Origin: Candidatus Poseidoniaceae archaeon
GTDB lineage: Archaea > Thermoplasmatota > Poseidoniia > Poseidoniales > Poseidoniaceae
Assembly (NCBI GenBank): GCA_965659685.1
Contig: CBFHXB010000002.1
Span: forward strand, 71,903-135,902
Direction: 5' to 3'
Length of the DNA: 64,000 bases
Shown here: one piece after another, positions 42,121 through 63,991 of the stretch
Layout: every line of letters begins with the position of its first letter
Position numbering within the stretch: the first letter of the stretch is position 1
The notes under the pieces: model-generated
Database searches by the model: none
The model's input: only the letters and a program-made list of their open reading frames with translations
What the model was told of the DNA's origin: nothing
Program-made: the position numbers and the translations under genes

Positions 42121-42248
42121 CGGCGGTTATGGCCCTTCTTCAACGCGACGGAGCCAGAACGCCACCTTCCGCGCTGAAGTGGGGAACGGTTATGTGCTCA
42201 TCAGCGATGCAAACGTTGCCGCCTTACGGCTCTTCAGGAGGAAGAAGC

Positions 42249-51164: not shown

Positions 51165-51238
51165 GGTTCCTCTTGGGGCGCAACGGCACTTGAACGCACG
51201 GGTCACTTGCTGCACCAAGAAACACGTTGCGGTGCGTT

Positions 51239-51244
51239 GAAATA
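51239..51244 (+). promoter_or_regulatory. Possible TATA-like box (GAAATA) for tRNA-His
   Basis: TTGAAATAGGCG ends about 28 nt upstream of the tRNA 5' end. It is weaker than the other boxes. Confidence 0.35.
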
Positions 51245-51272
51245 GGCGCGTCAGGACGGCGCGATACCTCTT

Positions 51273-51345
51273 GGCTGTGGTGGTGTAGGGGTTAGCACGG
51301 CAGATTGTGGTTCTGCCAGCCCGGGTTCAATTCCCGGCCACGGCC
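51273..51345 (+). tRNA. tRNA-His (anticodon GUG) with genome-encoded G-1, no encoded CCA
   Basis: GGCTGTGGTGGTGTAGGGGTTAGCACGGCAGATTGTGGTTCTGCCAGCCCGGGTTCAATTCCCGGCCACGGCC. The extra 5' G pairs with the discriminator C, giving an 8-bp acceptor. The anticodon loop is TTGTGGT. Confidence 0.9.
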
Positions 51346-51350
51346 CTCTG

Positions 51351-51362
51351 TTGTTTTCTGTT
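51351..51362 (+). terminator. Oligo-T-rich tract after tRNA-His
   Basis: TTGTTTTCTGTT begins 6 nt after the tRNA 3' end. Archaeal terminators are typically oligo-T runs. Confidence 0.35.
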
Positions 51363-51456
51363 GGAAGCAGGCCGTGGCCTCAGGCGTTCTGTTGACCGAT
51401 GTTCTTCGCACGGCAGAGCTTTGCTCATCTCCTGCACGTCATGCAAAGGTCACGCG

Positions 51457-51777
51457 CTAGACACTTACTTCTGATAGAGCCCGACCAAGTTCGAACAGGA
51501 ACAACATCAGCAAAATGAATGCGGCCAACAGGGCGATGACGGTCAAGCCAACGAGTCCGCCAAGGAGTTTGAATACGAACAACACCTTGCGTTCGTAGGC
51601 GTCGGGTTCATCCTTCCTCGGGTCAGGAGCCAAGGCCACGATTTCTGCTTCCATGCCTTCGCCTTCGTCGGGCAACCATCCAAACTGTTGACCGCAGGAC
51701 AAACACGTGAACACGTCTGCCTTGTTCGCGGGGAGTTCAAGGGTTGCCTCGCAGTGAGGACACTGCCCCTCTGGCAT
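51457..51777 (-). CDS. Zinc-ribbon plus C-terminal TM-helix protein (106 aa, hypothetical)
   Basis: MPEGQCPHCEATLELPANKADVFTCLSCGQQF has CxxC-x17-CxxC. The TM helix is LLGGLVGLTVIALLAAFILLMLFLF. The ATG at 51777 lies 22 nt downstream of an AAAAAATAA box. Confidence 0.55.
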   Translation of the reverse strand: MPEGQCPHCEATLELPANKADVFTCLSCGQQFGWLPDEGEGMEAEIVALAPDPRKDEPDAYERKVLFVFKLLGGLVGLTVIALLAAFILLMLFLFELGRALSEVSV

Positions 51778-51799
51778 GCAAAAACATGTTTCGGTGCGG

Positions 51800-51808
51800 T
51801 TATTTTTT
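51800..51808 (-). promoter_or_regulatory. TATA-like box (AAAAAATAA)
   Basis: It lies in an AT-rich patch inside the 3' end of the upstream gene, 22 nt upstream of the ATG at 51777 on the minus strand. Confidence 0.4.
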
Positions 51809-51827
51809 GCTCCGAAACGAACGGAGT

Positions 51828-53282
51828 TCACAGCGTCTGCGGGCCACCGGCGGGCATTGGTGCCAGCATGGTGATGTTCTCGCCCCGCAGGCTGGGGCCC
51901 TCATGGAAGGTCGCGAAGATGCCGACATCGGCGCCGCTCGCGCCTCCGATGTTGTGGGCCAGGGCGAACCAGGTGCGCCCTTCAGCGTCAACCCGGATGT
52001 CGAGGAAGTCACCGAGACCACCGCAGCGGTTGTAGCCGCAGTCCTCGACGGTGTCGATCGGGTCGTCCATCGCGTTGAGTTGGACGGTGGTCAGCAGTGG
52101 CGTTTCGTTGAAGGCGTCCGTCGCATAGGTGAGGTAGGCGTTCCAGATTTCCTCTTCCCGGGCGTCTTCACCGACGTAGCCGAAGGCGACGGTGCCGGCG
52201 TCACCGGCCACGACCACGGGGAATCCGGTGCCGGTCAAGCCGATGGGCGGTGCGATCATGGTCGCGTTGGACCACGTCGTGCCTTGGTCACGTGAATACG
52301 ACCAGTAGGGCATGTCGTCCAAGCCCATCCACATCGCGTGGACGTTGCCGGAGGAATCGACCTCCACCTGCGCTTCTTCGGCGTTCCACGTGTCTGCGGT
52401 GCCGGTTTCAGAGGTCGGAAGCGGGTGTTCGGTCCACGAAATGCCCGCGTTGGTGGTGCGGAACACAGAGTAGCCTTCGCCCGTGCATCCCTTGTTGCCA
52501 CGGTAGAAGTTCCCGTCGACGCTGCCGACAAGGTGCGCCGAGAGGCCACCGGAGGAGCAGGTCACCGGCGCGCCAGAGGTTTCTGGGCCCCACGTTGCGC
52601 CGCCGTCTTGGCTTGAGGAACAGAGCGGGTGAGGCGCGTTGCCGTTGATGCAGAACATCCAGGTGGTCGGATGGAAGAGGGCTTCCATGTTCGAGCTCGC
52701 AATGGTTTGGTGGTCTTGGACCGAGTAAATCTGGGTGGCCACGCTGGGTCCATTCCACGATGCACCCTCATCGTCGGACCATTCGACGGTCATGCCCAAC
52801 AAGGCGTGCATGTCGAATTTCATGATGCGGCTGGTCCACGGGTCGACGTAGATGTAGGGGTCGTTGGAGTTCGCGATGGGCAGCAGTGGATCGTAGACGT
52901 TCTCGCAGGAATAATCCAACACGGTGGTCATGCCGATCAAATCGCAGGCCACCACGGCCGTGGAACCACCCGGTCCGTTGCCGTAGGAACTCATGAAGAG
53001 GGTTTGCGACTCGGTGATGCCCATCGTCGGCTCGAAGGTCGACATGCCGATGCCGTAGTAGGTGCCCATGGCATGGAATGGAGCGTTTCGACCTTCGAGG
53101 CCGAGGCTGTCGTTGCCCCACGCGTCCACGGCGTCGGGCATGTGGTACCAGGTCAATTCGGGACGCTCGAAGTCCCACACGGTGGGCGTGGGCGCCTCCG
53201 GCTCGGCCTCTTCGCCACCAAGGCAACCTGCCAGCGGCAGGGTCAGCATCATGATGGTCAGAAGGAGGGCCATCGTGCGCAT
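51828..53282 (-). CDS. BNR/Asp-box repeat beta-propeller protein with lipobox-type signal peptide
   Basis: MRTMALLLTIMMLTLPLAGC carries an LAGC lipobox. Four Asp-boxes are present: SDDEGASW, SQDGGATW, TTNAGISW and SRDQGTTW. Confidence 0.8.
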   Translation of the reverse strand: MRTMALLLTIMMLTLPLAGCLGGEEAEPEAPTPTVWDFERPELTWYHMPDAVDAWGNDSLGLEGRNAPFHAMGTYYGIGMSTFEPTMGITESQTLFMSSYGNGPGGSTAVVACDLIGMTTVLDYSCENVYDPLLPIANSNDPYIYVDPWTSRIMKFDMHALLGMTVEWSDDEGASWNGPSVATQIYSVQDHQTIASSNMEALFHPTTWMFCINGNAPHPLCSSSQDGGATWGPETSGAPVTCSSGGLSAHLVGSVDGNFYRGNKGCTGEGYSVFRTTNAGISWTEHPLPTSETGTADTWNAEEAQVEVDSSGNVHAMWMGLDDMPYWSYSRDQGTTWSNATMIAPPIGLTGTGFPVVVAGDAGTVAFGYVGEDAREEEIWNAYLTYATDAFNETPLLTTVQLNAMDDPIDTVEDCGYNRCGGLGDFLDIRVDAEGRTWFALAHNIGGASGADVGIFATFHEGPSLRGENITMLAPMPAGGPQTL

Positions 53283-53311
53283 GCTGCTCACCGTACCTCG
53301 CTCAGCGAGGT

Positions 53312-54235
53312 TCACGCTTCGTCTGAAATGGAGGTCGGTCTTGAACGCTCTCGTCGTTGCCTGCGGCCACCTTCGAGGGCTTGACGGTCCAGAACGGACT
53401 TGCCGTAGGGCGTCAGGTACTGCTCGAGGGGATCACGACGTCGTCGGACGCTGCCGCTGCCTCGACCTCCGACCTTTCCTCCACCGCCGACGCTGCGTCC
53501 GGCCTTGAGGCGAGCTTGAACTTCGAGCGCCCTTTCGCGCTTTTGTTCGTCGCTCAAGTTCTTCATCGACGGGTCCTTCATCAAGCCCTCAAGTTCCTTC
53601 TTCGAGGCACGCTTCTTGGCGGCCCGGTGCTGGTAGACGAAACTTACCCCAGCAATCGGAACGGCGAACCACACGGTGGTCGAGGCGCCAGGATGCAGGG
53701 TCATCACCGGCATTTCAAGGAGAATGAACACACCCACCAGAAGCCCAACTGAGCCCACGGCTGCCGCAGCAATGGTCGGCAACAGCTTGCGCACGGACCG
53801 CGTGAAATACCACGTGACCAACGCGGCAATGATGGGGATGAACTCACCCTGCTCGATGTCGATGCCGCGCACATAGAGTGCCTGTACGCCGGCCGTGATG
53901 CCGATGAAGGCCAGCAAACCTGCCATCATCCGCAGGCTTGCTTGCGCCACCGACACCATCAGGATGCCGATGATCGCGGCGCAGGCCAGTTGGCTCTGCG
54001 CCATGTCCAACGGCGAATCGATGCCCACCGATTGGAGCATGCTCAGTAGGTTTGGGGCGAGCACATAGCCCGTCACCGCTCCAATGGCGAGGGCCGTCAC
54101 CGGCAAGCGACGGTGACCTTGAAGCAACAAAAGGACGGAAAAAAGCACGATGGGAGCGCCTGCGAGCGGACCTTGTGCTTCGACGACCAACAGGAGGTCG
54201 CTGCCGGAGTCGGCGATGTCGTTGATTCTCGACAC
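53312..54235 (-). CDS. Hypothetical polytopic membrane protein with basic C-terminal tail
   Basis: Several TM helices (AIIGILMVSVAQASL, LLAFIGITAGV, VGLLVGVFILLEM, WFAVPIAGVSFVY) are followed by a K/R-rich tail. The GTG at 54235 is a proposed start. The rest of the 549-aa track ORF is antisense to the hydroxylase gene. Confidence 0.45.
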   Translation of the reverse strand: MSRINDIADSGSDLLLVVEAQGPLAGAPIVLFSVLLLLQGHRRLPVTALAIGAVTGYVLAPNLLSMLQSVGIDSPLDMAQSQLACAAIIGILMVSVAQASLRMMAGLLAFIGITAGVQALYVRGIDIEQGEFIPIIAALVTWYFTRSVRKLLPTIAAAAVGSVGLLVGVFILLEMPVMTLHPGASTTVWFAVPIAGVSFVYQHRAAKKRASKKELEGLMKDPSMKNLSDEQKRERALEVQARLKAGRSVGGGGKVGGRGSGSVRRRRDPLEQYLTPYGKSVLDRQALEGGRRQRRERSRPTSISDEA

Positions 54236-54379
54236 GTGCTCACGAGGTCCGGGCCGGTCTTCATGATGCCGATGATGGGCCCACGACTCAGTCGAGACGA
54301 GGTGCTTGGCGTTCGATGTTCTGTGGTGCGCGACGAGAGAAGACGATACCAACAAAAGCGGGCCTTGTGTCTTCGGTTC

Positions 54380-55480
54380 ATGGGTGACGAGGACCAGCTC
54401 ATCGTGCCCACGGTGGAAGGAGGGCTCCTCGACGCGATGACGCCTCACATCGAAGCCGTGGAACGTCGGAAGCAGCGGGAGGAGGAGGATTTGGCCCCGA
54501 CTCCGCTGGTGTTCCGCGTGATGTTGACCCTCGCTTTGATCGGGGGATTGGCTTGGGCATGGTCCTTGGAGGCCTTCGGTCCTCTTGGCGTGCTGGTGGT
54601 GTTGTTTGTCCTTGTCGTGCCCTTCGAGAAATTGTTTCCTCGTCACGCGCAACCCTTGCGACGTCCAATGGTTGTCTCGGACATGACCCACGCGCTCCTC
54701 CTCCCGGTCAACGGTGTGCTGGCCACCATCGTCGTGGTCGTGGTGGCCGTGCTTTCGCTGATGTGGATTCCAGGACTGTTGCTCCGACCCTTGGTGGACC
54801 AACTCCCAGAACTTCCTCGCTTGGTGCTTGGCGTCTTGCTCTTCGATCTCGCCGTGTATTGGACGCACCGCTTCCACCATGAGGTGCCCTTCCTCTGGCG
54901 CTTTCACCAGGTCCACCATTCCACAGAGCATTTGGATTGGGTCTCTGGATTTCGCGTTCACCCGTTGGATGGAGCCTTGTTGGCGCCCGCCTTCGTGTTC
55001 TTGATCGCCGCAGGATTTTCACCCGAATTTGGTGGCGTTCTTGCCGTCGCTCAGGCCATCACCGGCTTGTTCCTTCACGCCAACGTTCGGTTTCGGTGGC
55101 GCTTGCTCCACCGCCTGATCATCACGCCTGAATTCCATCACTGGCACCATTCCAACCATGAGGAGGCACGATGGTCGAATTACTCCACCTTCCTCCCGGT
55201 GTGGGACATGATCTTCCGCACCTACCACATGCCCAAAGACGCGCGACCACAAACCTACGGGATCGACACACCAATGCCCAAGGGTGTGATGGAACAATGG
55301 TTGCTCCCCTTCCGAGGTTTGGGCTCGCCTGTCAACGCGGTGCGCCATCCGTGGCGCTCGTTCAAACTCGTGCTGTCCGGCACCAAACGGCTGCTCCGTG
55401 ACATGCGCTGGAGCATGACACGAAAGCACGACCAAACACCGTTCGGCGTGCCGAAGGTCCCGGCCCCCCAAGACCCGTGA
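54380..55480 (+). CDS. Fatty-acid hydroxylase / sterol-desaturase superfamily membrane enzyme
   Basis: Three His boxes are present (HRFHHE, HQVHHS, HHWHHSN) in a multi-TM protein. The start is uncertain, with ATGs at 54263, 54380 and 54437. Confidence 0.8.
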   Translation: MGDEDQLIVPTVEGGLLDAMTPHIEAVERRKQREEEDLAPTPLVFRVMLTLALIGGLAWAWSLEAFGPLGVLVVLFVLVVPFEKLFPRHAQPLRRPMVVSDMTHALLLPVNGVLATIVVVVVAVLSLMWIPGLLLRPLVDQLPELPRLVLGVLLFDLAVYWTHRFHHEVPFLWRFHQVHHSTEHLDWVSGFRVHPLDGALLAPAFVFLIAAGFSPEFGGVLAVAQAITGLFLHANVRFRWRLLHRLIITPEFHHWHHSNHEEARWSNYSTFLPVWDMIFRTYHMPKDARPQTYGIDTPMPKGVMEQWLLPFRGLGSPVNAVRHPWRSFKLVLSGTKRLLRDMRWSMTRKHDQTPFGVPKVPAPQDP

Positions 55481-55533
55481 CCCTCCGGACGGAGCGGTCG
55501 CTTCTTTGAAATGGCGACCGCGGGTCGGGGGAC

Positions 55534-56745
55534 TTGGTGAGCACCGTGATCAACGATCTCGCGAACCCCACAGAAGCCCATCTCATGTTGCGTGAGATGG
55601 TGCGTGAATGGGTCAAAGAGCACGTCGAACCTCAAGCGCATGAGCACGACCGGTTGGAACGATTCAACCTCGACCTGATGCGCTCCATGGGTGAATTGGG
55701 CCTGCTTGGCCTGACGGCAGACGAAGCCTATGGCGGCGCAGATCTGGATGCTGTTGCGGTCTGCATCGTCCACGAGGAACTGTCCGCCTCGGACCCAGGG
55801 TTTGCCCTTGCCTACCTCGCACATGCGATGCTGTTTGTGAACAACCTCGCCTTCAACGGTGACGACGCACAAAAAGAACGCATCCTGCCAAAGGTCTGCT
55901 CAGGCGAGTGGATCGGCGCGATGGCCATGTCCGAACCCGACGCAGGAACCGACGTCCTCGGATTGACCACCAACGCGGTCAAGCAAAACGACGGAACGTG
56001 GTTGCTCAACGGTCGCAAGATGTGGATCACCAACGGCGTCCTCGACGAAGAGGGCACCCCCGCCGATGTCGTCTGGGTCTACGCAAAAACCGGCACCGAC
56101 GCAAACGGTCGCGTTCAGATGAGCACCTTCCTCGTGGAAGCCGGCATGCCGGGATACAGCGTCGGTCAGAAGATCATGGACAAGACCGGCATGCGAGCCT
56201 CCAACACCGCTGAATTGGTCTTCCAGGATTGCATCGTCCCCGCTGCCAACCTTGTCGGCGACGAAGGCGGTTCCTTGGTGCACATGATGGGCAACCTCGA
56301 AATCGAGCGCTTGGCCTTGGCCGCGATGTCCCTCGGGATCGGTCGCCGTGCCCTCGAAGAAATGAACCAATACGCCACGGACCGCACCGCGTTCGGGAAC
56401 AGCATCCGTGATTTCGGCCAAATCCAACGTCACATCGGTGAGTCGTGGTCCAAGTACCGTGCCATGCGTTCCTACATCTACGACACCGCATCCAACCTCG
56501 AACTCGGGCAAGCCGGACAACGCTTGGACTCCGACGGCGTGAAACTCTACGCCACCACGGCCGCCAAGGAAATCGCGGACGCCGCCATGCAAGTCATGGG
56601 AGGCTACGGGTACGTGGGTGAGTATCACGTCGAGCGTTTGTGGCGGGACGCGAAGTTGCTGGAGATCGGTGGCGGGACCCTTGAATCCCACCAGAAGAAC
56701 ATCACCCGCGACCTCGCGAAGATGCACGATGCTATCTTGCGATGA
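55534..56745 (+). CDS. Acyl-CoA dehydrogenase (isovaleryl-CoA dehydrogenase-like)
   Basis: GAMAMSEPDAGTDV, MWITNG, ASNTAELVFQDCIVP and GGYGYVGEYHVERLWRDAKLLEIGGGT are present. Confidence 0.9.
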   Translation: MVSTVINDLANPTEAHLMLREMVREWVKEHVEPQAHEHDRLERFNLDLMRSMGELGLLGLTADEAYGGADLDAVAVCIVHEELSASDPGFALAYLAHAMLFVNNLAFNGDDAQKERILPKVCSGEWIGAMAMSEPDAGTDVLGLTTNAVKQNDGTWLLNGRKMWITNGVLDEEGTPADVVWVYAKTGTDANGRVQMSTFLVEAGMPGYSVGQKIMDKTGMRASNTAELVFQDCIVPAANLVGDEGGSLVHMMGNLEIERLALAAMSLGIGRRALEEMNQYATDRTAFGNSIRDFGQIQRHIGESWSKYRAMRSYIYDTASNLELGQAGQRLDSDGVKLYATTAAKEIADAAMQVMGGYGYVGEYHVERLWRDAKLLEIGGGTLESHQKNITRDLAKMHDAILR

Positions 56746-56755
56746 GTCTGCGTCC

Positions 56756-59700
56756 TTACGGTTGCCACCGTTGCCAAAGTTGGTCGCTGTGTGCGGCTCG
56801 GTAAAACCAGACTCCGCTTCCTTGCGGCATCTCGTACCATTCGTAGCCGTCGTCTTTGACCACACCGACCGCGTGGACGGAGGGTTCCGTTAGCATGCCT
56901 TGCTGGGGCGATTGATGCGCGACCGCTGGCGTCGTCCGGGGTTCATCCAATTCGCTCATCGCGATCTTTTCGCGCAGCAGGATGCCTCTGTCTTCTGAAT
57001 CCATTGAACCTTCGAGCCCAAAGTAGCCCTCGGTGTGGGCGATGCGGTACAGGTCTTGGGGAGAGGCGACGAGCAGGTCATCGATGAGGGTGAACAACTT
57101 CTCGCGCGTGTCTTTCCTGATCTCGTTGTTCGTGTACCGTGCGGTGAGGTCAGCCTTCAGTTGGTTGAGTTCTTCCGTGAGCTCCGGAGGATTGCCGTGA
57201 TAGGCCTGCACCAACGATTTGAGGTAACTCAATTCGTTGGTCTCCTCTTCGGAAAGCTTGCTGTTCTTGCGCAGCACCTGCACCCACCGGAAGGCATCTG
57301 GGAGGACAGCCGCCACGGCGTTGGTTTGCAAGATGCTGAACAAGGCAAGGAGGATGGCGCCGATTCCCACGGTGGTCGTCACCGCCCCAGCATCACCGGC
57401 AAAGAGCGATTGCAAGGTGGAGACGTCTTCTTCACTCTGGGTGGACGGGAGCAAACAGCCGCGGGAGTCCACCGTCACGCCCTCGGCTGTGCCAGGGCAC
57501 TGATCCTCGGTGTCCGGCACGCCGTCGTTGTCTGAATCGACCACGGTTTGCGTTTCGTTTCCGTCATCGGTTTGGTTGTCCTCCGACGGTTGGAACTGGT
57601 CCGGGACACCGTCGCCGTCTGCGTCAAGGCAGCCGTAGTACCCGTCCGCCGTGGAGTTGCCAGCAACGCCGGGGCAGTGATCAGGTTGCACCGCTCCGAC
57701 AACGAATGCACCGGGCCAATCTGGACTTCGGCTCTCGTTCCAAGACGCATCGCCCCAGTTGTCGCCGTAGCCGTCGCCGTCCGTGTCCGTCCACTGGGTG
57801 GCCTCAAGCGGGAAGATGTCCTGATGATCGGGGATACCGTCTCCGTCAGCGTCCAATTGGGCCGGTGAGCAACCGTCGCCATCGACCTCTGCCTGAGCAG
57901 CGGTGTTTGAACAGAGGTCGTTCACGTCCCCGATGCCGTCGCCGTCGCTGTCCAAGGACTGGGTGCTGTCGTTGGGGAAGGCATCGGTGTTGTCGCCCAC
58001 GCCGTCGCCGTCGGAGTCCATCTGCTCGAAGGCGTTCGTGGGAAAGGCATCGCTGTTGTCCCCCACCCCATCCCCGTCGCTGTCTGCGGTCTCACTCGGG
58101 TTGTTTGGGAAGGCGTCGCTGTTGTCCCCCACGCCGTCACCGTCGGAATCCATGATCTCGAAGGGATTGAACGGGAAGGCATCGGCGTTGTTGCCGACAC
58201 CGTCACCGTCGCTGTCCTCGCTCTCGGTGGCGTCGTTTGGGAAGGCATCGGCGTTGTTTCCAACGCCGTCACCGTCGCTGTCCATCCATTCTGCGCTGTT
58301 GCTGGGGAAGGCGTCACCGGCGTTGCTGTAACCGTCGCCGTCGTCGTCAGGGCATCCCGTCTGATCTTGCGTGGAGTTGCCTGCGACCTCGAGGCAATCG
58401 TCGTCCGCGTTCAGCACGCCGTCGCCGTCGAGGTCGTTCTGATCGATGAACGTGAAACTGGACGACAACAAGTGTTCGCTTCCGTCCTTGTCGATGAGGC
58501 TGAGGTCGACGGTGCCAGACGTGGAAACGGAAGGCGTCGTGACCCGAATCAAGGTGTCGTTCACGACGGTGCCCGTCACAGAACCGGAGGTGCCAAATTT
58601 CACCGTGATCTCATGCGACACATCGACGCCGGTCGATTTTGTGGTGTACTTCAACACGTCCGACGTCGCGTCGCTGAAGGGAACGTGCATGATTCCTTGT
58701 CCATCGATGAAAATTGAATTTCCTTCTCCAACATCGGCACCGTTGGCGATCGTGCTGACGTCCCAGTTGGTCGTGATTGGATCGATGGTTGCGTACTTCA
58801 AATTCATTCCAGACCATGTGTGGTACACGATGTGGGGTTGATCAGCAGCGTCAACCGCGATGGAAGGGTCCCGGCCGGTGTGCCCTGATGCGTCGATGAT
58901 CTCGGTGGTCCATCCACTGTTTGGCGTTCCCGTTGAGTACCTCAAATCGTCTTCTTTGTCATCGAAATGGGCGATGTGAAACTGTCCCTGTTGATCCACT
59001 GCCATTGAGGTCATGTAACCCGGGTACAACTGGGATGGGCTGGTTCCAGTGTCGACCAGGTAGGTGTCCCATGAGCCGCTCTTGTCCGTCGCGATTTTCA
59101 GTTTCGAAGAGGAACGGTCTTGATAGGCGATGTAGATGTCATCGTTCTCGTCGATCACGATGGCAGACTCACATCCCCGATTGTTTCCGGATTCAACCGT
59201 GCTGTGGGCCCAGGTTGTTCCTGTGTATGAGGCGATGCGCAGTCCATTCCCGCATTGGTCTGCGCCGTTGACGGCGTAGGAGATGTGTGGGCGGTTGTTT
59301 GAGTCAACAGCGATGCCAATTGGGCCGAAATGCGCAGCGTTCGAAACGGTCTGATCCGTCCATGCGGTTCCATCGAACGTCATGTAGACCAACGTTTCAG
59401 CCCAACTGGTGTAGGTGGTGTACGCCAAGTGCAGGTGGTCGTTGTCATCAATGACCATGTGAATGTCCCAACAATACGTGTTCCCACAATCGTTTATTTT
59501 CACTGAATTCCAACTTGTCCCGTCGTGGACGCTGTGTCGGATTTCGTAGTTTCCGTCTTTGATTTGGACGACGTGGATGTGCCCGTTCGAATCAACACCG
59601 ACGGCATTCCATCGACCTGCTTGGTCGCTCATGTCCAAATTCGACGCTGCCCATTGGTGGTTGATGCCGTCACGGGTGACGTTGGTGAAGGCGAGATCGG

Positions 59701-59950
59701 AAAAGCCGCTTCCGGTGATCTCGATGTCCTCACCTCCGCTCATCCATCCTTGTGTCGGTGTGACCGTGGTCTGCATCGAGCCAGTGTGTTGAACCATGTT
59801 GTGTTCAGGTTGCAGCGAGACAGGGTCGACGGGCAGCATCGAAGCAAGCAGCGCGAGCACGACGGCCAACACCAGCCCTGAGCGCATACCACAGGCTGGC
59901 TTTGGCCCATTTTCATGCTTTGGTACCGTGGACGTGCCTTCCTCCCACAT
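56756..59950 (-). CDS. Giant type-I membrane protein with beta-propeller-like repeats, an IPT/TIG-like domain, thrombospondin type-3-like Ca-binding repeats, a TM helix and an about 190-aa cytoplasmic tail
   Basis: Start is the ATG at 59950 or 59887 (MRSGLVLAVVLALLASMLP signal). A repeated hhVDxxGxxHIxY motif occurs about 7 times. DSDGDGVGDN-type repeats are present. The TM helix is GIGAILLALFSILQTNAVAAVL. The longer track ORF (to 60424) overlaps the upstream gene. Confidence 0.85.
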   Translation of the reverse strand: MWEEGTSTVPKHENGPKPACGMRSGLVLAVVLALLASMLPVDPVSLQPEHNMVQHTGSMQTTVTPTQGWMSGGEDIEITGSGFSDLAFTNVTRDGINHQWAASNLDMSDQAGRWNAVGVDSNGHIHVVQIKDGNYEIRHSVHDGTSWNSVKINDCGNTYCWDIHMVIDDNDHLHLAYTTYTSWAETLVYMTFDGTAWTDQTVSNAAHFGPIGIAVDSNNRPHISYAVNGADQCGNGLRIASYTGTTWAHSTVESGNNRGCESAIVIDENDDIYIAYQDRSSSKLKIATDKSGSWDTYLVDTGTSPSQLYPGYMTSMAVDQQGQFHIAHFDDKEDDLRYSTGTPNSGWTTEIIDASGHTGRDPSIAVDAADQPHIVYHTWSGMNLKYATIDPITTNWDVSTIANGADVGEGNSIFIDGQGIMHVPFSDATSDVLKYTTKSTGVDVSHEITVKFGTSGSVTGTVVNDTLIRVTTPSVSTSGTVDLSLIDKDGSEHLLSSSFTFIDQNDLDGDGVLNADDDCLEVAGNSTQDQTGCPDDDGDGYSNAGDAFPSNSAEWMDSDGDGVGNNADAFPNDATESEDSDGDGVGNNADAFPFNPFEIMDSDGDGVGDNSDAFPNNPSETADSDGDGVGDNSDAFPTNAFEQMDSDGDGVGDNTDAFPNDSTQSLDSDGDGIGDVNDLCSNTAAQAEVDGDGCSPAQLDADGDGIPDHQDIFPLEATQWTDTDGDGYGDNWGDASWNESRSPDWPGAFVVGAVQPDHCPGVAGNSTADGYYGCLDADGDGVPDQFQPSEDNQTDDGNETQTVVDSDNDGVPDTEDQCPGTAEGVTVDSRGCLLPSTQSEEDVSTLQSLFAGDAGAVTTTVGIGAILLALFSILQTNAVAAVLPDAFRWVQVLRKNSKLSEEETNELSYLKSLVQAYHGNPPELTEELNQLKADLTARYTNNEIRKDTREKLFTLIDDLLVASPQDLYRIAHTEGYFGLEGSMDSEDRGILLREKIAMSELDEPRTTPAVAHQSPQQGMLTEPSVHAVGVVKDDGYEWYEMPQGSGVWFYRAAHSDQLWQRWQP
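57911..58288 (-). repeat. Tandem 66-nt coding repeats (DSDGDGVG(N/D)N(A/S/T)DAFPN...), six units
   Basis: Near-identical 22-aa units were read directly from the translation. More degenerate D-x-D-G-D copies extend to about 57490 and about 58440. Confidence 0.85.
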
Positions 59951-59970
59951 GAGTGAGAACCGCTTCCTCT

Positions 59971-60528
59971 TCAAGCCGGCGAGCGTCGAACCAAGACGAG
60001 GTTGAGGACGGCCAGAACCATGACGACGACGGAGAGCCACAACGGCATCAGTGGGACCTGATCGTAGGGGAGTGAAAGACCGTCCAGCAGGGATTCGCCC
60101 CGCGTGTAGGTGCCACCCATTGAGGACGTCATCAGCACCATTCCAACCGCCAACAGGCCCCCCAGGCTCTGCCACCGTCGCCCCAAACGGTCGTTCCAGA
60201 CCTGCGCACCGAGCCTTCGGCGGGTCAGCAAAACCCCCAGCGCGAGTCCAATGGCGGCAGAGCCAAGCAGCATCTTGTTGATGAGCAAGGGATGATTCAC
60301 GCCGTCTCCAGGGCTCGATTGTAGCCCTGTGGCCATGGCGAAAGGCATCGCAAAGAGACCGAACGCGAGCGCGAAGTGCGCGGTCACGTCCGCCACCCCA
60401 ACATGGCGACCCGTTCCGAACCATCCGTGGCTGGCCACGCCAGCCAACAGGAAGGCCACGCCTGCCAAGGCGAAGGATCCAACGGCCACTTCCGTGGAGA
60501 TCACGTGAAGGGTGGATGCGGAGACCAT
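59971..60528 (-). CDS. Polytopic (about 5 TM) membrane protein, hypothetical
   Basis: Five hydrophobic helices with several intramembrane or near-membrane His residues (SHGW, GRHVG, TAHFALAF, VNHPLL). Its ATG overlaps the upstream stop (TGATG). Confidence 0.65.
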   Translation of the reverse strand: MVSASTLHVISTEVAVGSFALAGVAFLLAGVASHGWFGTGRHVGVADVTAHFALAFGLFAMPFAMATGLQSSPGDGVNHPLLINKMLLGSAAIGLALGVLLTRRRLGAQVWNDRLGRRWQSLGGLLAVGMVLMTSSMGGTYTRGESLLDGLSLPYDQVPLMPLWLSVVVMVLAVLNLVLVRRSPA

Positions 60529-61499
60529 CAGGGCATCACCTCGTCAGCGAAGGGCAGAAGTTTCGGCTGCTCGTTGTGGGGAAGGGTCTTGCGTGGCAAC
60601 GCGATGAAGGCGACCAAGAACGCCACCAACATGGCGAACGCTTGGGCATACACGGTCATGTCGTCTGACTCAAAGGTCGGCTCCTGGCTTTGCAAGGCCA
60701 CCCATGGGGTGGTCTGCGTGGGCCCTTCGCCTTCCAAATGAACGCGCCATTCGACCAGCACCGGTGCGAGGCTGGCTGGGATTTCAAAGGTCCACACGCC
60801 GTTGTCCTGCGAGGTTGCAGCGGCCGTTCGGACCGCGCCGCCATCCACGCGCCACTCGACGTCGAGGTCGTGCACGGCTTCGGTCGTCAGGCGGATGACG
60901 GTGGATTCACCGACGGTGCGCATCACCGGTGGCTGGAAGCCTTCGGACAGACGGGGCAAATCGTCGGGAACCGCATCCACCTGCACGCTGACCGGCGCGG
61001 TCGTGACGCCGAAAAAGGGCGCTCCGCTGCCGTCTCGGGCGCCGTGGTGCACGGATGCATGAAGGTCGTAAGCACCCGCACTGGGCGCTCGCAGCGTCCA
61101 CTCGACCGTGTGCTGAGCGGTGCCGTCAGGGACGACCACTTCGACGTAATTTTGTGATCCCCCCTCGCTGTTGGACACCACCGTCCATCCGTCGTCCTCC
61201 GGCGTGTCTTCGGCCCCGGAAACATCGGAGAGCAAGAAGAAGCCAAGCAGGCCGGTGTCGGTGGTTTGCACGTTGGTCACGGTTACGGAGACGCTGGTGA
61301 GCAAGCCCTCGTACACGGCATGCTCGACGGAAATCGAGACCGTTGAGGCAGAGCTTCGGTTCATGTCGGCATCACCGTGGCAGGCACCGCCACACTGTGC
61401 GTCGAAGGTGCCCTCGCCGACACCGTTTGGATTCGCGGCGCCGAAGGATGGCGCCATCAGCAAGGCGGACACGATCAACAGAACGGCGAGACGCTTCAT
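60528..61499 (-). CDS. Secreted, C-terminally anchored protein sharing an N-terminal C-H-G ... W-T-x-x-A-P module with the next gene
   Basis: Signal MKRLAVLLIVSALLMAPSFGAA. Module elements are QCGGACHGD, LLGFFLL and VEWTLRAPSAGAYDL. The C-terminal TM helix is FAMLVAFLVAFIAL. An ATGA overlap links it to the upstream gene. Confidence 0.7.
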   Translation of the reverse strand: MKRLAVLLIVSALLMAPSFGAANPNGVGEGTFDAQCGGACHGDADMNRSSASTVSISVEHAVYEGLLTSVSVTVTNVQTTDTGLLGFFLLSDVSGAEDTPEDDGWTVVSNSEGGSQNYVEVVVPDGTAQHTVEWTLRAPSAGAYDLHASVHHGARDGSGAPFFGVTTAPVSVQVDAVPDDLPRLSEGFQPPVMRTVGESTVIRLTTEAVHDLDVEWRVDGGAVRTAAATSQDNGVWTFEIPASLAPVLVEWRVHLEGEGPTQTTPWVALQSQEPTFESDDMTVYAQAFAMLVAFLVAFIALPRKTLPHNEQPKLLPFADEVMP

Positions 61500-63991
61500 T
61501 GACGACCACCTCCGTGGCGCAGCGTCAGAAGTTGGAGCAGCAGCAGCACGAACAGCATGGCTCCACCAAGTCCGTATCCCAGGCCAGCGGCTGGCTCCGG
61601 CGCTTCCACTTGAACGTCCTCGACGAGGACGCTGACGTCGTCCGCACCCCGTTGGAAGGTGCGCTCCTCATTGACCGGTTGAACCGTGTAGGTGTTGGCA
61701 CCGCTCATCGGCGGTCGGTCGGTGAAGTCGGTCGCGTTGACCGCCGCAATCATGTTGCCGTTTCTATAGACATGATGCGTGACCATTTCTCCGCTCCATA
61801 ACCACGTCAAATGGACCATGCCTGAGCCGTCATGCCGTGCTTCAAGGCCCTGAATTTGCGGCCCTGATTCAGGCGTCAAGGAAAGGCTGGTCGTCGCGCT
61901 GGCGCCGTGTTCGTCCGTGACCCGGAGGGTGACTTCTGTGGGGCCATCCAGAATGATCGCAACCTCGCTTCCGGTGGCGGTTTGACCGTTCCACGTCCAT
62001 CGATGGACGAGGTGCGTGCCGTCCAGATCCGTGGACCCATCGCTGGACAACACGGTGCGTTCCCCAAGCCAGACCTCGCGTGAAAGGACCTCGATGACGG
62101 GCACCGGTGGCAGGTTGCCGATGACGACGTCGGCTTCCGCGGCTTCGCTCCATGCGATGCCGTCGCTGACCATGACGCGAAGTCGCCAGCCTTGCTCCGG
62201 TGCCAATTTTTCGTTCGGCACAGAGGTCAGGTTCGACAGCGTGGCGTCGCGAAAGCCGTTCTTGTACCATGTTATCGTGAAGGTCAGGTCATCGCCGTCT
62301 GCGTCCACTGCGACGATGTTTGGGGACAAGTCGGCCCGGGAGGTTACGTTCTCCGACCAGGCCACCTCCACACGTGGAACCGAGTTCAGCACGATCAGGC
62401 GCTCGGTGGTGGAGCCAACCTCTTCGATGCCGTCGGAGATGCGCACCACAGCATGCCATACGTCGCCTCGGCTCAACGCCGAGGCGGGAAGGACGGTTTC
62501 GTCAACCGCGGTGCCTTGCTCCACGTCGTTCAGGAACCATCGCACGCTGGTGATGGTCAGGTCATCCCCGTCCACGTCGCTGCCGGTGAGGTTCAGCGTC
62601 AGGTTGTCTTGGACCGTGAAGGACGTCGACACAATCCGAGCGTCATCGATGGCCGGGGGCGTGTTTCCAACCACGAGGGTCTGGCTCGTCGTCCACGCCG
62701 ACCAAAGGTTGCCGTCGTAGGCTCGAACCTGCACCGACCATGCTTCTCCCTTGGCGGTCATGGAGGACGGCAACGGATTGAGTCCATCCGCTGCTGAGAC
62801 GGCAACACCGTCCCTGCTCCAAACCAGTTCCACGGATTGAACGGCGTCCCCGTCGGGGTCGCTCTCCAACCACGTGGCGAGAATGCTGTCTCCGGTCAAC
62901 GGCACGGTGGCGTTGCCAATCTGAACTTCGCTGACCACGGGGGCCTCGTTGCTGGAGCCCACCGTGATGGGGTCCGACATGAACCATTCCGAAACGTCGG
63001 TACCGTCCGAAACGCGAACCTCAACGCTCCACACGTCGCCTGGGCGCGTGGCAAAGGAGGGCAACGTTGTGGCGTTGTCCAGCGAGTGAACGGGGCTTCC
63101 TTCGAGGTGCCAGCGCGCCTCGGTGGTGGTCGTGGCATCGCCGTCAACGTCCTCGCTCTGCAGGCTGAAGGTCACGTCCACGGAGGTGTCCGGGGTGACG
63201 CTGCTGGGCGTCACCGAGACCACCGAAGGTGCAGAATTGACGACGATCACCGGCGTGGAAGCCTCGGTCGTTCCTGCGTCCATGCCGTCGGAAGGCGTGA
63301 CCTCAACGTGCCATGATTCCCCCTTTGAGGTGACGGATGCGGGCAGCGTCAGGGCGGTGTGTGAGGGTTGCACCACCCCGTTGCGGTACCATGCGACGCT
63401 GGAGCCGCTCTCGGTGTCGCCGTCGTCGTCAAGGAAGGTGTAACTCGCGGTCAGATCGGCCAAGGTCGTGGGTGCGTTTGGTGCAATGGCGAGGTTGCTG
63501 ATGCTTGGTGCTTGGTTGGACACCGCTTCGTTGGCGGTCGTCGAGGTGGTGCCGAAGGTGTCTCCGCTTGTCGCCCCATTGCCGTTGGCGGACAGCACGG
63601 CCAGATCAAACCGGACCGCTCCAGACCCGGCCGCAGGTGCGGTCCAGTCCATGGTCCACGATGTGGTACCTGGAGCGTAATCGTGGGTGGCTTGCCGTCC
63701 GTTGGCGTTGACCTTGCTGTTGGCATCGGGATTCGACAATTGTCCCTTGTTGACCTCGAGGTTGAATCCCCCGGTGTTGGGCGATGTGCCCATGCCGACG
63801 GTCAAGGTGTAGGAGGTCCCAGGCGTGTAATCGGTCGGGACGCCGCTCAATTGTGCCGTCACGCTGCTGTAGCCGTGGCAGTTGCAGCCTCCTGAACTGT
63901 TGTACATCCCGTTGTCTTTGGCCACCACTTGATTCAAGGGTGCAACAGCGAGCAAAACCACGAGAAGCACGATGCCGACGGCGGTCCGCAT
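61496..63991 (-). CDS. Large secreted, C-terminally anchored protein (831 aa) with a C-H-G module, five cadherin/Ig-like repeats and a PKD-like domain
   Basis: Signal MRTAVGIVLLVVLLAVAP. Module elements are GGCNCHG, GGFNLEV and MDWTAPAAGSGAVRFDL. Five units of about 94 aa carry D-x-D-G-D and (K/R)G(E/D)xWxVxV motifs. The C-terminus is AAGLGYGLGGAMLFVLLLLQLLTLRHGGGRQ*. Confidence 0.85.
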   Translation of the reverse strand: MRTAVGIVLLVVLLAVAPLNQVVAKDNGMYNSSGGCNCHGYSSVTAQLSGVPTDYTPGTSYTLTVGMGTSPNTGGFNLEVNKGQLSNPDANSKVNANGRQATHDYAPGTTSWTMDWTAPAAGSGAVRFDLAVLSANGNGATSGDTFGTTSTTANEAVSNQAPSISNLAIAPNAPTTLADLTASYTFLDDDGDTESGSSVAWYRNGVVQPSHTALTLPASVTSKGESWHVEVTPSDGMDAGTTEASTPVIVVNSAPSVVSVTPSSVTPDTSVDVTFSLQSEDVDGDATTTTEARWHLEGSPVHSLDNATTLPSFATRPGDVWSVEVRVSDGTDVSEWFMSDPITVGSSNEAPVVSEVQIGNATVPLTGDSILATWLESDPDGDAVQSVELVWSRDGVAVSAADGLNPLPSSMTAKGEAWSVQVRAYDGNLWSAWTTSQTLVVGNTPPAIDDARIVSTSFTVQDNLTLNLTGSDVDGDDLTITSVRWFLNDVEQGTAVDETVLPASALSRGDVWHAVVRISDGIEEVGSTTERLIVLNSVPRVEVAWSENVTSRADLSPNIVAVDADGDDLTFTITWYKNGFRDATLSNLTSVPNEKLAPEQGWRLRVMVSDGIAWSEAAEADVVIGNLPPVPVIEVLSREVWLGERTVLSSDGSTDLDGTHLVHRWTWNGQTATGSEVAIILDGPTEVTLRVTDEHGASATTSLSLTPESGPQIQGLEARHDGSGMVHLTWLWSGEMVTHHVYRNGNMIAAVNATDFTDRPPMSGANTYTVQPVNEERTFQRGADDVSVLVEDVQVEAPEPAAGLGYGLGGAMLFVLLLLQLLTLRHGGGRQ
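62108..63514 (-). repeat. Five tandem about 94-aa (about 282-nt) coding repeats
   Basis: Repeats span about aa 160-628. Each unit contains N-x-(A/P)-P, D-x-D-G-D, W-x-x-(N/D)-G, L-P-(A/S)-S and (K/R)-G-(E/D)-x-W-x-V-x-V-x-x-S-D-G. The copies are diverged at the DNA level. Confidence 0.75.

What the first reader, a model, noticed from the sequence alone, without database searches (positions are those of the whole stretch)
56756..63991. Translationally coupled four-gene minus-strand operon: repeat giant, C-H-G module protein, polytopic membrane protein, then beta-propeller/TSP3 receptor-like giant
The gene junctions are ATGA (61496-61499), TGATG (60526-60530) and a 20-nt gap (59951-59970). The four genes are therefore almost certainly co-transcribed and partly translationally coupled. 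Two products are secreted and C-terminally anchored and share an N-terminal module. One is a 5-TM protein with several His residues. The last is a type-I membrane protein with a large ectodomain (propeller-like hhVDxxGxxHIxY repeats, an IPT/TIG-like domain, Ca-binding TSP3-like repeats) and a sizeable cytoplasmic domain. This looks like a dedicated envelope complex for adhesion, sensing or possibly redox. I cannot assign it to a described system.
Basis: partly seen in the sequence, partly recalled or inferred. Interest (0 to 1): 0.65.

Follow-up and report, generated by a model that had tools for sequence, protein, structure and literature searches.

The report
Conserved archaeal surface cytochrome-like three-gene module
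Three of the four genes form an operon found in every marine Group II archaeon (Poseidoniales) that could be tested: two surface-anchored proteins that probably carry covalently bound heme, plus a small membrane partner; the fourth gene is only a local neighbour.

Summary
The sequence features are real. Four minus-strand genes have ATGA, TGATG and 20-nt junctions (the last is 83 nt if g4 starts at a second ATG). The domain descriptions are also correct. The window comes from a Poseidoniales (Marine Group II) archaeon.

Only g1-g2-g3 is a conserved unit. It keeps this order in all 78 testable loci among 80 species representatives, down to 42% g3 identity and with different flanks. g4 (propeller/TIG/TSP3 receptor-like giant) occurs only in the same species and one close relative. 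Near relatives with the same flanks carry other genes in that slot.

g1 and g2 share a Reeler-like beta-sandwich module (NCBIfam choice-of-anchor V). It has an invariant Cys-His: GCxCH in g1 and QCGGACHGD in g2. g3 is a 5-TM protein distantly related to DUF2231.

In a non-marine archaeal lineage the g2-like/g3-like pair sits beside CcmABCEF cytochrome c maturation genes and a multiheme cytochrome (20 of 22 contigs). g1-like proteins there carry canonical CXXCH. Distant g3 relatives pair with EB_dh haem-domain proteins.

Best reading: a membrane-anchored extracytoplasmic haem-c electron-transfer module of a new family. Haem binding is inferred, not shown. I could not check whether Poseidoniales have a cytochrome c maturation system.

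The parts
61496..63991 (-). g1: 831-aa exported, C-terminally anchored protein. It has a signal peptide, a choice-of-anchor V / Reeler-like module (aa 21-151), about six Ig-like repeats (Big_9/PKD/cadherin-like) and a C-terminal TM helix (aa ~801-825).
   Evidence: NCBIfam NF041895 gives 88.5 bits against a cut-off of 42. There are weak Pfam Reeler/Big_9/PKD hits and a weak match to the F-spondin reeler domain 2zou, E=0.006. Orthologues lie upstream of g2 in 72 of 80 species loci; the other loci are truncated or split.
63875..63886 (-). g1 C36-N-C38-H39 motif (GCxCH). Proposed haem-c attachment site, with a variant CX1CH spacing.
   Evidence: GCxCH is invariant in all 77 g1 orthologues recovered. 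Homologous 195-aa PEF-CTERM proteins of a non-marine archaeal lineage have canonical CXXCH in 5 of 6 and CGCH in 1. A second His (H103, QATH) is invariant in Poseidoniales g1.
60528..61499 (-). g2: 323-aa exported type-I membrane protein. It has a signal peptide, a divergent choice-of-anchor V module, a second Ig-like sandwich, a TM helix (aa 281-303) and a short cytoplasmic tail.
   Evidence: The AF2 model has pLDDT 80 and shows two beta-sandwiches plus a TM helix. Foldseek finds only generic tandem Ig folds. choice_anch_V scores 8e-5, below the cut-off. There are 209 homologous clusters; every hit that carries a source name is Poseidoniales or Thermoplasmatota.
61377..61394 (-). g2 C36-GGA-C40-H41 motif (QCGGACHGD, CX3CH). 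Proposed haem-c attachment site. H152 (HHG) is a candidate distal ligand.
   Evidence: The motif is invariant in all 88 g2 orthologues recovered. CX3CH is kept in most non-marine archaeal g2-like proteins; variants are CXXCH, CX6CH and single-Cys xxxCH. The motif loop (aa 19-46) has pLDDT below 50 in the cofactor-free model.
59971..60528 (-). g3: 185-aa five-TM protein, N-terminus outside and C-terminus inside by the positive-inside rule. It is a distant DUF2231 relative and the obligate partner of the anchored Cys-His proteins.
   Evidence: There is no Pfam or NCBIfam hit. The family is small: 127 clusters in 1.84 billion representatives. Family-wide invariant residues are H8, G17, G68, K85 and R103; N84, W111 and S146 are nearly invariant. 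D47 and H51 are additionally invariant within Poseidoniales. A distant member scores 24.3 bits against DUF2231, whose cut-off is 26.4. g3-like genes always lie immediately downstream of a C-terminally anchored g2-like or EB_dh protein.
56756..59950 (-). g4: 1064-aa (or 1043-aa, start at 59887) type-I surface protein. It has TIG, a ~7-blade propeller-like repeat region, a second TIG, twelve TSP3-type Ca-binding motifs, a TM helix and a 184-aa cytoplasmic tail. It is a co-directional neighbour, not part of the conserved module.
   Evidence: Pfam TIG and TSP_3 hits are, and motif and TM positions. The best PDB sequence match is only the TSP3-type OmpA-family protein 5wtl. g4 is absent downstream of g3 in 79 of 80 species loci and in L001-L009 and L014. 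There is no paralogue in the window.

Best explanation
**What the unit is**
The functional unit is the translationally coupled three-gene operon g1-g2-g3. g4 is not part of it.

**The two surface proteins**
- g1 and g2 are exported by Sec and held on the outer face of the cytoplasmic membrane by C-terminal helices.
- Each displays a Reeler-like beta-sandwich module (choice-of-anchor V).
- The invariant Cys-His of this module (CxCH in g1, Cx3CH in g2) is most likely a covalent haem-c attachment site, with the His as proximal ligand.
- That would make them monohaem c-type cytochromes of a new, non-helical fold family.

**The membrane partner**
- g3 is a five-helix, DUF2231-like protein.
- Its conserved residues cluster at the outer membrane surface: H8, N84-K85, and R143/E145/S146.
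- I infer that it docks the anchored cytochrome(s) and connects them to the membrane electron pool. This could be a quinol site or a bound cofactor near the outer leaflet.

**Proposed function**
- The trio would act as an extracytoplasmic electron-transfer module.
- Poseidoniales are reported to have Rieske and cytochrome b proteins and a cytochrome c oxidase but no cytochrome c1. The trio is therefore a candidate for that missing carrier. An outward or inward electron path at the cell surface is also possible.

**What is shown and what is inferred**
- Shown: the coupling, the conservation, the homology relations, the motif invariance, and the Ccm, multihaem and EB_dh gene contexts in relatives.
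- Inferred: haem binding, a g2-g3 physical complex, and the direction and partners of electron flow.

**g4**
g4 is one of many lineage-specific giant surface proteins. It sits in a variable slot between g3 and the acyl-CoA dehydrogenase gene.
For: **Conservation of the trio**
- The order g1>g2>g3 holds in 72 of 80 species loci.
- In 6 further loci g2>g3 is present and the contig ends before g1. One locus is truncated at g3, and one has a split g1 HSP.
- Flanks differ between lineages.
- The 1-4 nt overlaps at both junctions are also kept.

**Motifs**
- GCxCH and QCGGACHGD are invariant.
- Across the wider family the Cys-His pair is fixed, while the first Cys sits 1, 2, 3 or 6 residues away or is absent. 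c-type haem motif variants behave this way.

**Context in a non-marine archaeal lineage**
- A g2-like gene is followed within 1-10 nt by a g3-like gene.
- In 20 of 22 contigs that extend more than 1 kb upstream, the pair lies divergent to a multihaem cytochrome c and/or CcmA/B/C/E/F.
- This gene set matches the streamlined archaeal Ccm system described in PMC9084895.
- g1-like PEF-CTERM proteins with canonical CXXCH lie just downstream in six contigs.

**Context of more distant g3 relatives**
- They are coupled to C-terminally anchored EB_dh (PF09459, haem-binding) proteins.
- Two of the three carry CX3CH and/or CXXCH.

**g3 structure**
- The top Foldseek hits to g3 are haem-handling or haem-b helical bundles (CcmC, Dcytb, cytochrome b561, STEAP1). 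None is significant.

**Literature**
- Tully 2019 (PMC6336850) reports that MGII have cytochrome b, a Rieske protein and cytochrome c oxidase but lack canonical complex III components.
Against: - No haem binding is demonstrated.
- CX1CH is, to my knowledge, not an established haem-c motif.
- No Ccm or Ccs gene lies near the trio in any Poseidoniales locus or in the window. I could not scan whole Poseidoniales genomes.
- Parts of MGII are predicted haem auxotrophs (bioRxiv 10.1101/2021.01.11.426183).
- g3 has only one family-wide invariant His, so it is not a classical bis-His dihaem cytochrome b. Its DUF2231 link is below threshold, and DUF2231 itself has no known function.
- The g1 module sits at the far end of about six Ig-like repeats. 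That suits a displayed binding domain better than a membrane-proximal redox relay.
- The L098 EB_dh partner has no Cys motif.
- No respiratory genes flank the trio in Poseidoniales.
Confidence: 0.5

Rival explanations
1. The trio is a haem (or iron-porphyrin) capture relay, analogous in logic to the Gram-positive Isd system. The g1 module on its long stalk captures haem away from the cell. g2 is the membrane-proximal relay. g3 is the membrane haem-handling or import component.
For: - Haem biosynthesis deficiencies are predicted for MG-IIb and MG-III sub-clades.
- g1 is long and g2 is short, as in receptor-to-relay systems.
- Weak, non-significant similarity links g3 relatives to CcmC and HRG haem transporters.
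- The trio is ubiquitous in the order.
Against: - A Cys-His motif that varies only in the first Cys is the signature of covalent attachment, not reversible binding.
- Relatives sit beside haem export and attachment (Ccm) genes in organisms that make multihaem cytochromes.
- g3 has no ATPase or permease partner and has only five helices.
- The hhalign match to CcmC has only 22% probability.
Confidence: 0.13
2. g3 is a dedicated maturation factor for its neighbour's non-canonical motif rather than an electron-transfer partner. It would act as an apocytochrome-handling or haem-ligation helper. This parallels the dedicated lyases encoded beside CXXCK and CX15CH cytochromes.
For: - g3-like genes are always immediately downstream of a protein with an unusual Cys-His motif.
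- Archaeal Ccm systems lack CcmH and CcmI (PMC9084895).
- The top structural hit to g3 is CcmC.
- The conserved residues of g3 face the outside.
Against: - g3 has no WWD domain and no conserved Cys, and only one family-wide invariant His.
- The profile-profile match to CcmC is not significant.
- The L098 partner has no Cys motif yet keeps its g3-like gene.
- PMC9084895 reports that CcmABCEF alone suffices in Methanosarcina.
Confidence: 0.12
3. The Cys/His residues bind a metal ion (Cu or Fe) rather than haem. The trio would then be a surface metal-binding or metalloreductase system, working like eukaryotic Reeler/DOMON-cytochrome b561 ferric reductases or CopC/CopD-type copper handling.
For: - The g1 module resembles the Reeler domain. 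Reeler domains occur in ferric-chelate reductase 1 (my own knowledge).
- In L099 the EB_dh/g3-like pair lies between two heavy-metal P-type ATPases behind an ArsR-type regulator.
- Dcytb and STEAP1 are among the top, non-significant, fold hits for g3.
Against: - Single-Cys xxxCH and canonical CXXCH variants occur in the same family.
- The Ccm and multihaem neighbourhood is consistent. Both points favour haem c.
- g3 lacks the four His of b561/STEAP-type reductases.
Confidence: 0.1
4. This is the first reader's model: all four proteins form one dedicated adhesion or sensing envelope complex, with g4 as the receptor subunit.
For: - The four genes share a strand and have short gaps.
- All four products are envelope proteins.
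- g4 has a cytoplasmic domain that could signal.
Against: - g4 is absent next to the trio in 79 of 80 species and in near relatives with identical flanks.
- In L021 another ORF separates g3 from the g4-like gene.
- The g3-g4 junction is the only one without overlap, and it may be 83 nt.
- The window carries several other unrelated giant surface proteins.
Confidence: 0.05

Closest known systems
NCBIfam NF041895, choice-of-anchor V domain (and the Pfam Reeler domain PF02014 / F-spondin reeler domain, PDB 2zou)
   Same: The g1 N-terminal module scores 88.5 bits against a cut-off of 42. g2 and the non-marine g2-like proteins hit the same model below cut-off. All are beta-sandwich, extracytoplasmic and followed by a C-terminal anchor.
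   Different: No function or cofactor is described for the family as far as I could find. The Reeler match is weak (Pfam E=0.007; PDB E=0.006). Eukaryotic reeler domains are not known to carry a Cys-His haem motif (my own knowledge).
c-type cytochromes with beta-rich folds and a C-terminal membrane anchor (cytochrome f; functionally cytochrome c1)
   Same: All have a Sec signal, a Cys...Cys-His motif close to the mature N-terminus, a beta-sandwich body and a single C-terminal TM helix on the outer face of the membrane. Relatives are encoded beside Ccm genes.
   Different: There is no sequence or fold match to cytochrome f or c1 (one search gives only generic Ig folds). Spacing is CX1CH or CX3CH instead of CXXCH. 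The genes are not next to Rieske or cytochrome b genes. Haem binding is unproven.
DUF2231 (PF09990), predicted membrane protein of unknown function
   Same: Distant g3-family members align over nearly the whole model (positions 3-130 of 139) at 24.3 bits, E=3.5e-5. Six of 36 members hit it. Size and helix number are similar.
   Different: The score is below the gathering threshold (26.4). The window's g3 gives no hit at all. DUF2231 has no assigned function, so the link adds no mechanism.
Eukaryotic Reeler/DOMON-cytochrome b561 proteins (FRRS1/SDR2, plant CYBDOM) and EB_dh haem-b subunits of type II DMSO-reductase-family enzymes
   Same: An extracytoplasmic beta-sandwich (Reeler / DOMON / EB_dh) redox domain is combined with a small helical membrane protein. 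Distant g3 relatives are coupled to EB_dh proteins. b561, Dcytb and STEAP1 are among the top fold hits.
   Different: g3 lacks the four conserved His of b561, and the fold hits are non-significant (E>=0.15). Here the parts are separate genes and the extracytoplasmic haem would be c-type. No molybdoenzyme is nearby.
TSP3-repeat, IPT/TIG surface proteins (e.g. MtsC/MtsD cohesion proteins, OmpA-family TSP3 protein 5wtl), for g4 only
   Same: g4 has calcium-binding DxDxDG repeats and TIG domains in a large ectodomain.
   Different: Scores are far below the equivalog cut-offs (46 against 350 bits). The propeller-like region and the cytoplasmic tail have no family match.

Membership tests
c-type cytochrome (covalent haem) | CXXCH (or an accepted variant CXnCH / xxxCH) motif in an exported polypeptide | tested here: inconclusive
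   g2 has an invariant CX3CH and g1 an invariant CX1CH. Homologues elsewhere have CXXCH, CX3CH, CX6CH and xxxCH. CX3CH is an accepted variant, but CX1CH is not established (my own knowledge). Both proteins have signal peptides.
c-type cytochrome (covalent haem) | A cytochrome c maturation system (Ccm, Ccs or other) in the same genome | not testable with these tools
   None is present in the window or in about 1.3 Mb of Poseidoniales loci, but these all come from the same region. In the non-marine relatives CcmABCEF is adjacent.
c-type cytochrome (covalent haem) | Haem covalently bound through thioether bonds | not testable with these tools
   This needs protein chemistry: haem stain, pyridine haemochrome or mass spectrometry.
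NCBIfam choice-of-anchor V (NF041895) | Score above the curated cut-off (42 bits) over the ~150-position domain | tested here: met
   g1 scores 88.5 bits over model positions 8-149. g2 scores 22.7 bits, so it is related but not a formal member.
Pfam Reeler (PF02014) | Score above the gathering threshold (21 bits) | tested here: not met
   g1 scores 17.3 bits, E=0.007. The PDB reeler domain match has E=0.006 over 45 residues.
DUF2231 (PF09990) | Score above the gathering threshold (26.4 bits) | tested here: not met
   The window's g3 gives no hit. The best family member, P0257, scores 24.3 bits.
Cytochrome b561 / dihaem membrane cytochrome b | Two pairs of conserved transmembrane His that ligate two haems b | tested here: not met
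   Only H8 is invariant family-wide. H51 is invariant only within Poseidoniales. The two lie near opposite membrane faces according to the AF2 helices and the positive-inside topology (inference).
Haem-handling proteins (CcmC / CcmF / CcsA, PF01578) | Trp-rich WWD domain flanked by conserved periplasmic His | tested here: not met
   g3 has no WWD motif. hhalign against archaeal CcmC gives 22% probability. Foldseek against 8ce1_C gives E=0.15 and TM 0.44.
   g1-g2-g3 is retained in every testable locus. g4 is found only in the same species and, separated by another ORF, in L021.

The most novel reading that the evidence does not exclude
The choice-of-anchor V module is a previously unrecognised beta-sandwich class of c-type cytochrome. 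It tolerates CxCH, Cx3CH, Cx6CH and single-Cys sites. With its obligate DUF2231-like partner it forms the missing cytochrome c1/c-equivalent of the Poseidoniales respiratory chain, carrying electrons between the Rieske/cytochrome b proteins and the terminal oxidase. A more radical version: in organisms without Ccm, the g3 family itself would deliver or ligate the haem.
Probability: 0.15. Interest if true: 0.85.

Novelty: new variant of a known kind. Interest (0 to 1): 0.62.

Why it matters
Poseidoniales are among the most abundant archaea in the surface ocean, and none has been cultured. Their predicted respiratory chain has an acknowledged gap: a Rieske protein, cytochrome b and a "cytochrome c oxidase" are present, but no cytochrome c1 (PMC6336850).

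This three-gene module is unannotated and appears order-wide. Context in relatives ties it to cytochrome c biogenesis, so it is a concrete and testable candidate for that gap, or for electron exchange at the cell surface.

If the module binds haem, three things follow:
- The choice-of-anchor V domain gets a cofactor.
- The DUF2231-like family gets a first functional context.
- The known range of haem-c attachment motifs and folds grows.

The result also corrects the unit of analysis. Future work should treat g1-g3 as the system and g4 as one of many variable surface proteins.

Tried and rejected
- **Exact look-up of g3 in the contig index:** not on record.
- **Foldseek of the g3 model against PDB:** nothing significant; best E=0.15.
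- **Foldseek of the g2 model:** only generic tandem Ig folds such as antibodies and titin, so the fold class alone gives no function.
- **g3 as a bis-His cytochrome b:** rejected, because H51 is not conserved outside Poseidoniales.
- **g3 as a CcmC-like haem handler:** hhalign gives 22% probability and there is no WWD motif.
- **g3 as a sortase or rhombosortase for the C-terminal anchors:** considered and rejected. There is no conserved Cys or Ser-His arrangement typical of those enzymes, and g2 keeps a cytoplasmic tail.
- **g2 as a CcmH/CcmG-like thiol-redox factor with g3 as a thiol relay:** rejected, because single-Cys variants exist and g3 has no conserved Cys.
- **Sigma-70 promoter and terminator scans:** uninformative for an archaeon.
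- **AT-rich box search upstream of the alternative g4 start:** not exceptional.
- **GC and GC3 of g4 against its neighbours:** only a minor difference, so no evidence of foreign origin.
- **Literature searches** for DUF2231, choice-of-anchor V, and c-type cytochromes or cytochrome c maturation in MGII: nothing specific.
- **Metagenome scan with a 9-sequence alignment:** A 5-sequence alignment worked.
Full report
**1. Observation**

The region holds four minus-strand ORFs:
- g1: 61496-63991, 831 aa
- g2: 60528-61499, 323 aa
- g3: 59971-60528, 185 aa
- g4: 56756-59950, 1064 aa

g1/g2 is ATGA, g2/g3 is TGATG, and a 20-nt spacer precedes g4. A second ATG at 59887 (MRSGLVLAVVLALL...) gives a more typical signal peptide, and one public gene call uses it. 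The g3-g4 spacer may therefore be 83 nt.

The window ends 9 nt upstream of g1. In a same-species contig (L010) the next gene is divergent and only 33 nt away, with an A-rich box about 25 nt before the g1 ATG. The operon therefore starts at g1.

Homologues name the organism as Candidatus Poseidoniales, that is Marine Group II.

**2. The proteins**

*g1* has a signal peptide and an N-terminal module that is a formal member of NCBIfam choice-of-anchor V (88.5 bits against a cut-off of 42). The module weakly resembles Reeler domains. About six Ig-like repeats and a C-terminal TM helix follow.

*g2* has a signal peptide, a diverged copy of the same module (8e-5; 27% identity to g1), a second Ig-like sandwich, a TM helix and a short tail. 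The AF2 model has pLDDT 80.

*g3* is a bundle of five long helices (AF2 pLDDT 72). It has no Pfam or NCBIfam match.

*g4* has TIG domains, about seven ~50-aa propeller-like repeats, twelve TSP3-type DxDxDG motifs, a TM helix and a 184-aa cytoplasmic tail.

**3. What is conserved**

A scan of one genome per GTDB species found 154 species with a g3 relative, and the best 80 were fetched. One contig is binned as a Salinimicrobium MAG, which is probably a binning error. None of the other 79 is labelled bacterial: they are named Poseidoniales or Poseidoniaceae or carry only a general archaeal label.

tblastn of the four proteins against these loci gave:
- 72 loci with g1>g2>g3 on one strand.
- 6 loci with g2>g3 where the contig ends before g1.
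- 1 locus truncated at g3.
- 1 locus with a split g1 match.
- No counter-example.

g3 identity runs from 42% to 86%, and the set includes the Iverson MG-II chromosome (L093). Flanking genes differ between lineages: DNA ligase and PAC2 in some, glycosyltransferase and an ABC transporter in others. The 1-4 nt overlaps at both internal junctions are nevertheless kept.

The g4 propeller and tail are found only in same-species contigs (L010-L013) and in L021. In L021 a 470-aa ORF lies between g3 and the g4-like gene. In near relatives that share the flanking acyl-CoA dehydrogenase at 94-95% identity, the slot holds CobW plus a small gene (L014) or 1.7-2.8 kb of other DNA.

The conserved unit is therefore three genes. 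g4 is one of several unrelated giant surface proteins in this window.

**4. The Cys-His motif**

All 77 g1 orthologues recovered have G-C-x-C-H. All 88 g2 orthologues have Q-C-G-G-A-C-H-G-D. Each protein has a further invariant His: H103 in g1 and H152 in g2. The g2 motif loop is the only low-confidence part of the ectodomain in the cofactor-free model.

**5. Relatives outside Poseidoniales**

A profile search of 1.84 billion representative proteins found only 127 clusters for the g3 family. The more distant ones fall into two contexts.

*(a) An uncultured non-marine archaeal lineage.* Its contigs carry Rpb6, PEF-CTERM proteins and a CcmE ending in CxxxY. In this lineage:
- A 300-350-aa g2-like protein with CX3CH, a choice_anch_V hit (1e-5), Big_7 and a C-terminal TM is followed within 1-10 nt by a g3-like gene.
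- A metagenome scan added 50 contigs.
- In 20 of 22 contigs that extend more than 1 kb upstream of the pair, the divergent neighbours are a 555-571-aa multihaem cytochrome c and/or CcmA, B, C, E and F (CcmF/NrfE TIGR00353 E=4e-45).
- This is the streamlined archaeal CcmABCEF set that is sufficient for cytochrome c maturation in Methanosarcina (PMC9084895).
- In six contigs a 195-aa PEF-CTERM protein homologous to the g1 module lies just downstream. Five have canonical CXXCH and one has CGCH.
- Among g2-like proteins the first Cys is 3 residues away in most, and 2 or 6 away in single cases. In three sequences it is missing (APSCH, SPTCH, AVGCH). The Cys-His pair is always kept.

*(b) More distant g3 relatives.* These are translationally coupled to 470-480-aa C-terminally anchored EB_dh proteins (PF09459, the haem-binding domain of ethylbenzene dehydrogenase gamma). 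The L099 protein has CYVTCH plus CGSCH, the L095 protein has CASCH, and the L098 protein has no Cys motif.

**6. Interpretation**

Three observations point to a covalent haem-c site:
- The Cys-His pair is fixed while the first Cys varies in position.
- Close homologues carry canonical CXXCH.
- The pair sits persistently beside haem-c maturation and multihaem genes.

On this reading the choice-of-anchor V module is a beta-sandwich monohaem cytochrome domain.

The g3 family is the obligate membrane partner of such anchored haem proteins. Its family-wide invariant residues are H8, K85 and R103, with N84, W111 and S146 nearly invariant. The positive-inside rule and the AF2 helices give an N-out, C-in topology. 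That places H8, N84/K85 and the R143-E145-S146 loop on the outer surface and R103/W111 on the cytoplasmic loop (inference).

g3 is not a dihaem b-type cytochrome, because it has only one invariant His. It has no WWD domain, and hhalign against CcmC gives 22% probability. It is a sub-threshold DUF2231 relative (24.3 against 26.4 bits for a distant member).

My best reading is that g3 docks the anchored cytochromes and links them to the membrane electron pool at the outer leaflet. I hold this at moderate confidence. Three rivals remain open: a dedicated maturation helper, a haem-capture relay and a metal-binding system.

**7. Relation to what is known**

No described system matches. The nearest functional analogies are:
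- cytochrome f and c1, which are anchored c-type cytochromes on the outer membrane face;
- Reeler/DOMON-cytochrome b561 proteins.

Membership of each family was tested and is listed in the membership table. Only choice-of-anchor V (for g1) is met.

Tully 2019 reports that MGII encode a Rieske protein, cytochrome b and a cytochrome c oxidase but no canonical complex III components (PMC6336850). That makes an order-wide anchored cytochrome-like module worth testing. Against this, no respiratory genes flank the trio. I could not establish whether Poseidoniales have any cytochrome c maturation system. Some MGII sub-clades are predicted haem auxotrophs.

**8. Verdict**

- The four-gene complex is not supported. 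A three-gene module is strongly supported.
- A redox (haem-c) role is the best-supported function, but it rests on context and motif logic only.
- I rate it a new variant of a known kind (anchored c-type cytochrome module), interest 0.62.

Noticed in passing
window 48777-63991 compared with L014-L018: Between close relatives the flanking 495-aa BNR/Asp-box-like protein (51828-53315) is 98% identical and the acyl-CoA dehydrogenase 94-95%. g1, g2 and g3 are only 64-80% identical, and the fatty-acid hydroxylase is 73-78%. The region is a mosaic of very different divergence levels. This suggests fast evolution or allele exchange of the surface trio.
   Followed up: partly
P0179, P0180, P0185, P0191, P0193, P0198 (g2 orthologues; alignment A2 columns ~340-396): A subset of Poseidoniales g2 proteins carries a conserved extra cytoplasmic tail, PLPEGGLPxGWxxEQWxWYGHEYLAGKYGG. 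The window's g2 lacks it. Its function is unknown.
   Followed up: no
L099 2123-9947: A distant EB_dh plus g3-like pair lies between two HMA-domain P-type ATPases, downstream of an ArsR/HTH_5 regulator. Rubrerythrin, glutaredoxin and rhodanese genes are nearby. The neighbourhood suggests metal or redox stress.
   Followed up: no
L100 1047-2822; L102 44-1801; L125 983-2674: A conserved 585-591-aa protein with no Pfam match is inserted between CcmE and CcmF in the non-marine archaeal Ccm clusters. It has an N-terminal ectodomain, one TM helix and a long charged coiled-coil-like tail. It may be an uncharacterised archaeal Ccm accessory protein.
   Followed up: no
L100 2869-3342: The CcmE of the non-marine lineage ends in ...VGCASKY. 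This is the CxxxY variant typical of archaeal and Desulfovibrio-type System I, not HxxxY (family knowledge from Allen et al. 2006, as cited in PMC9084895).
   Followed up: partly
window 7672-12573, 27596-32224, 42015-45629, 48777-51218: The window is rich in other giant predicted surface proteins: a 1633-aa ORF with no Pfam hit, a 1542-aa Kelch-propeller plus CARDB protein, a 1204-aa DUF11 protein and an 813-aa CARDB protein with a C-terminal anchor.
   Followed up: partly
window 60433-60476: A 21-nt tandem duplication (2.1 copies) lies inside g3. It encodes the repeated LAGVAF/LAGVAS segment of TM helix 1.
   Followed up: no
L007 6199-6534 (also L008; a 134-aa ORF is called at 6132-6536 in L009): In one Poseidoniales lineage a 111-aa gene with no Pfam match sits 10 nt upstream of the g1 orthologue on the same strand. 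The window's species has a divergent YbjN-like gene there instead.
   Followed up: partly
L017 (CAXRAI010000012.1): A contig carrying g2-g3 at 79% identity to the window is deposited in a MAG labelled Salinimicrobium sp. (a bacterium). This is probably a binning error.
   Followed up: no
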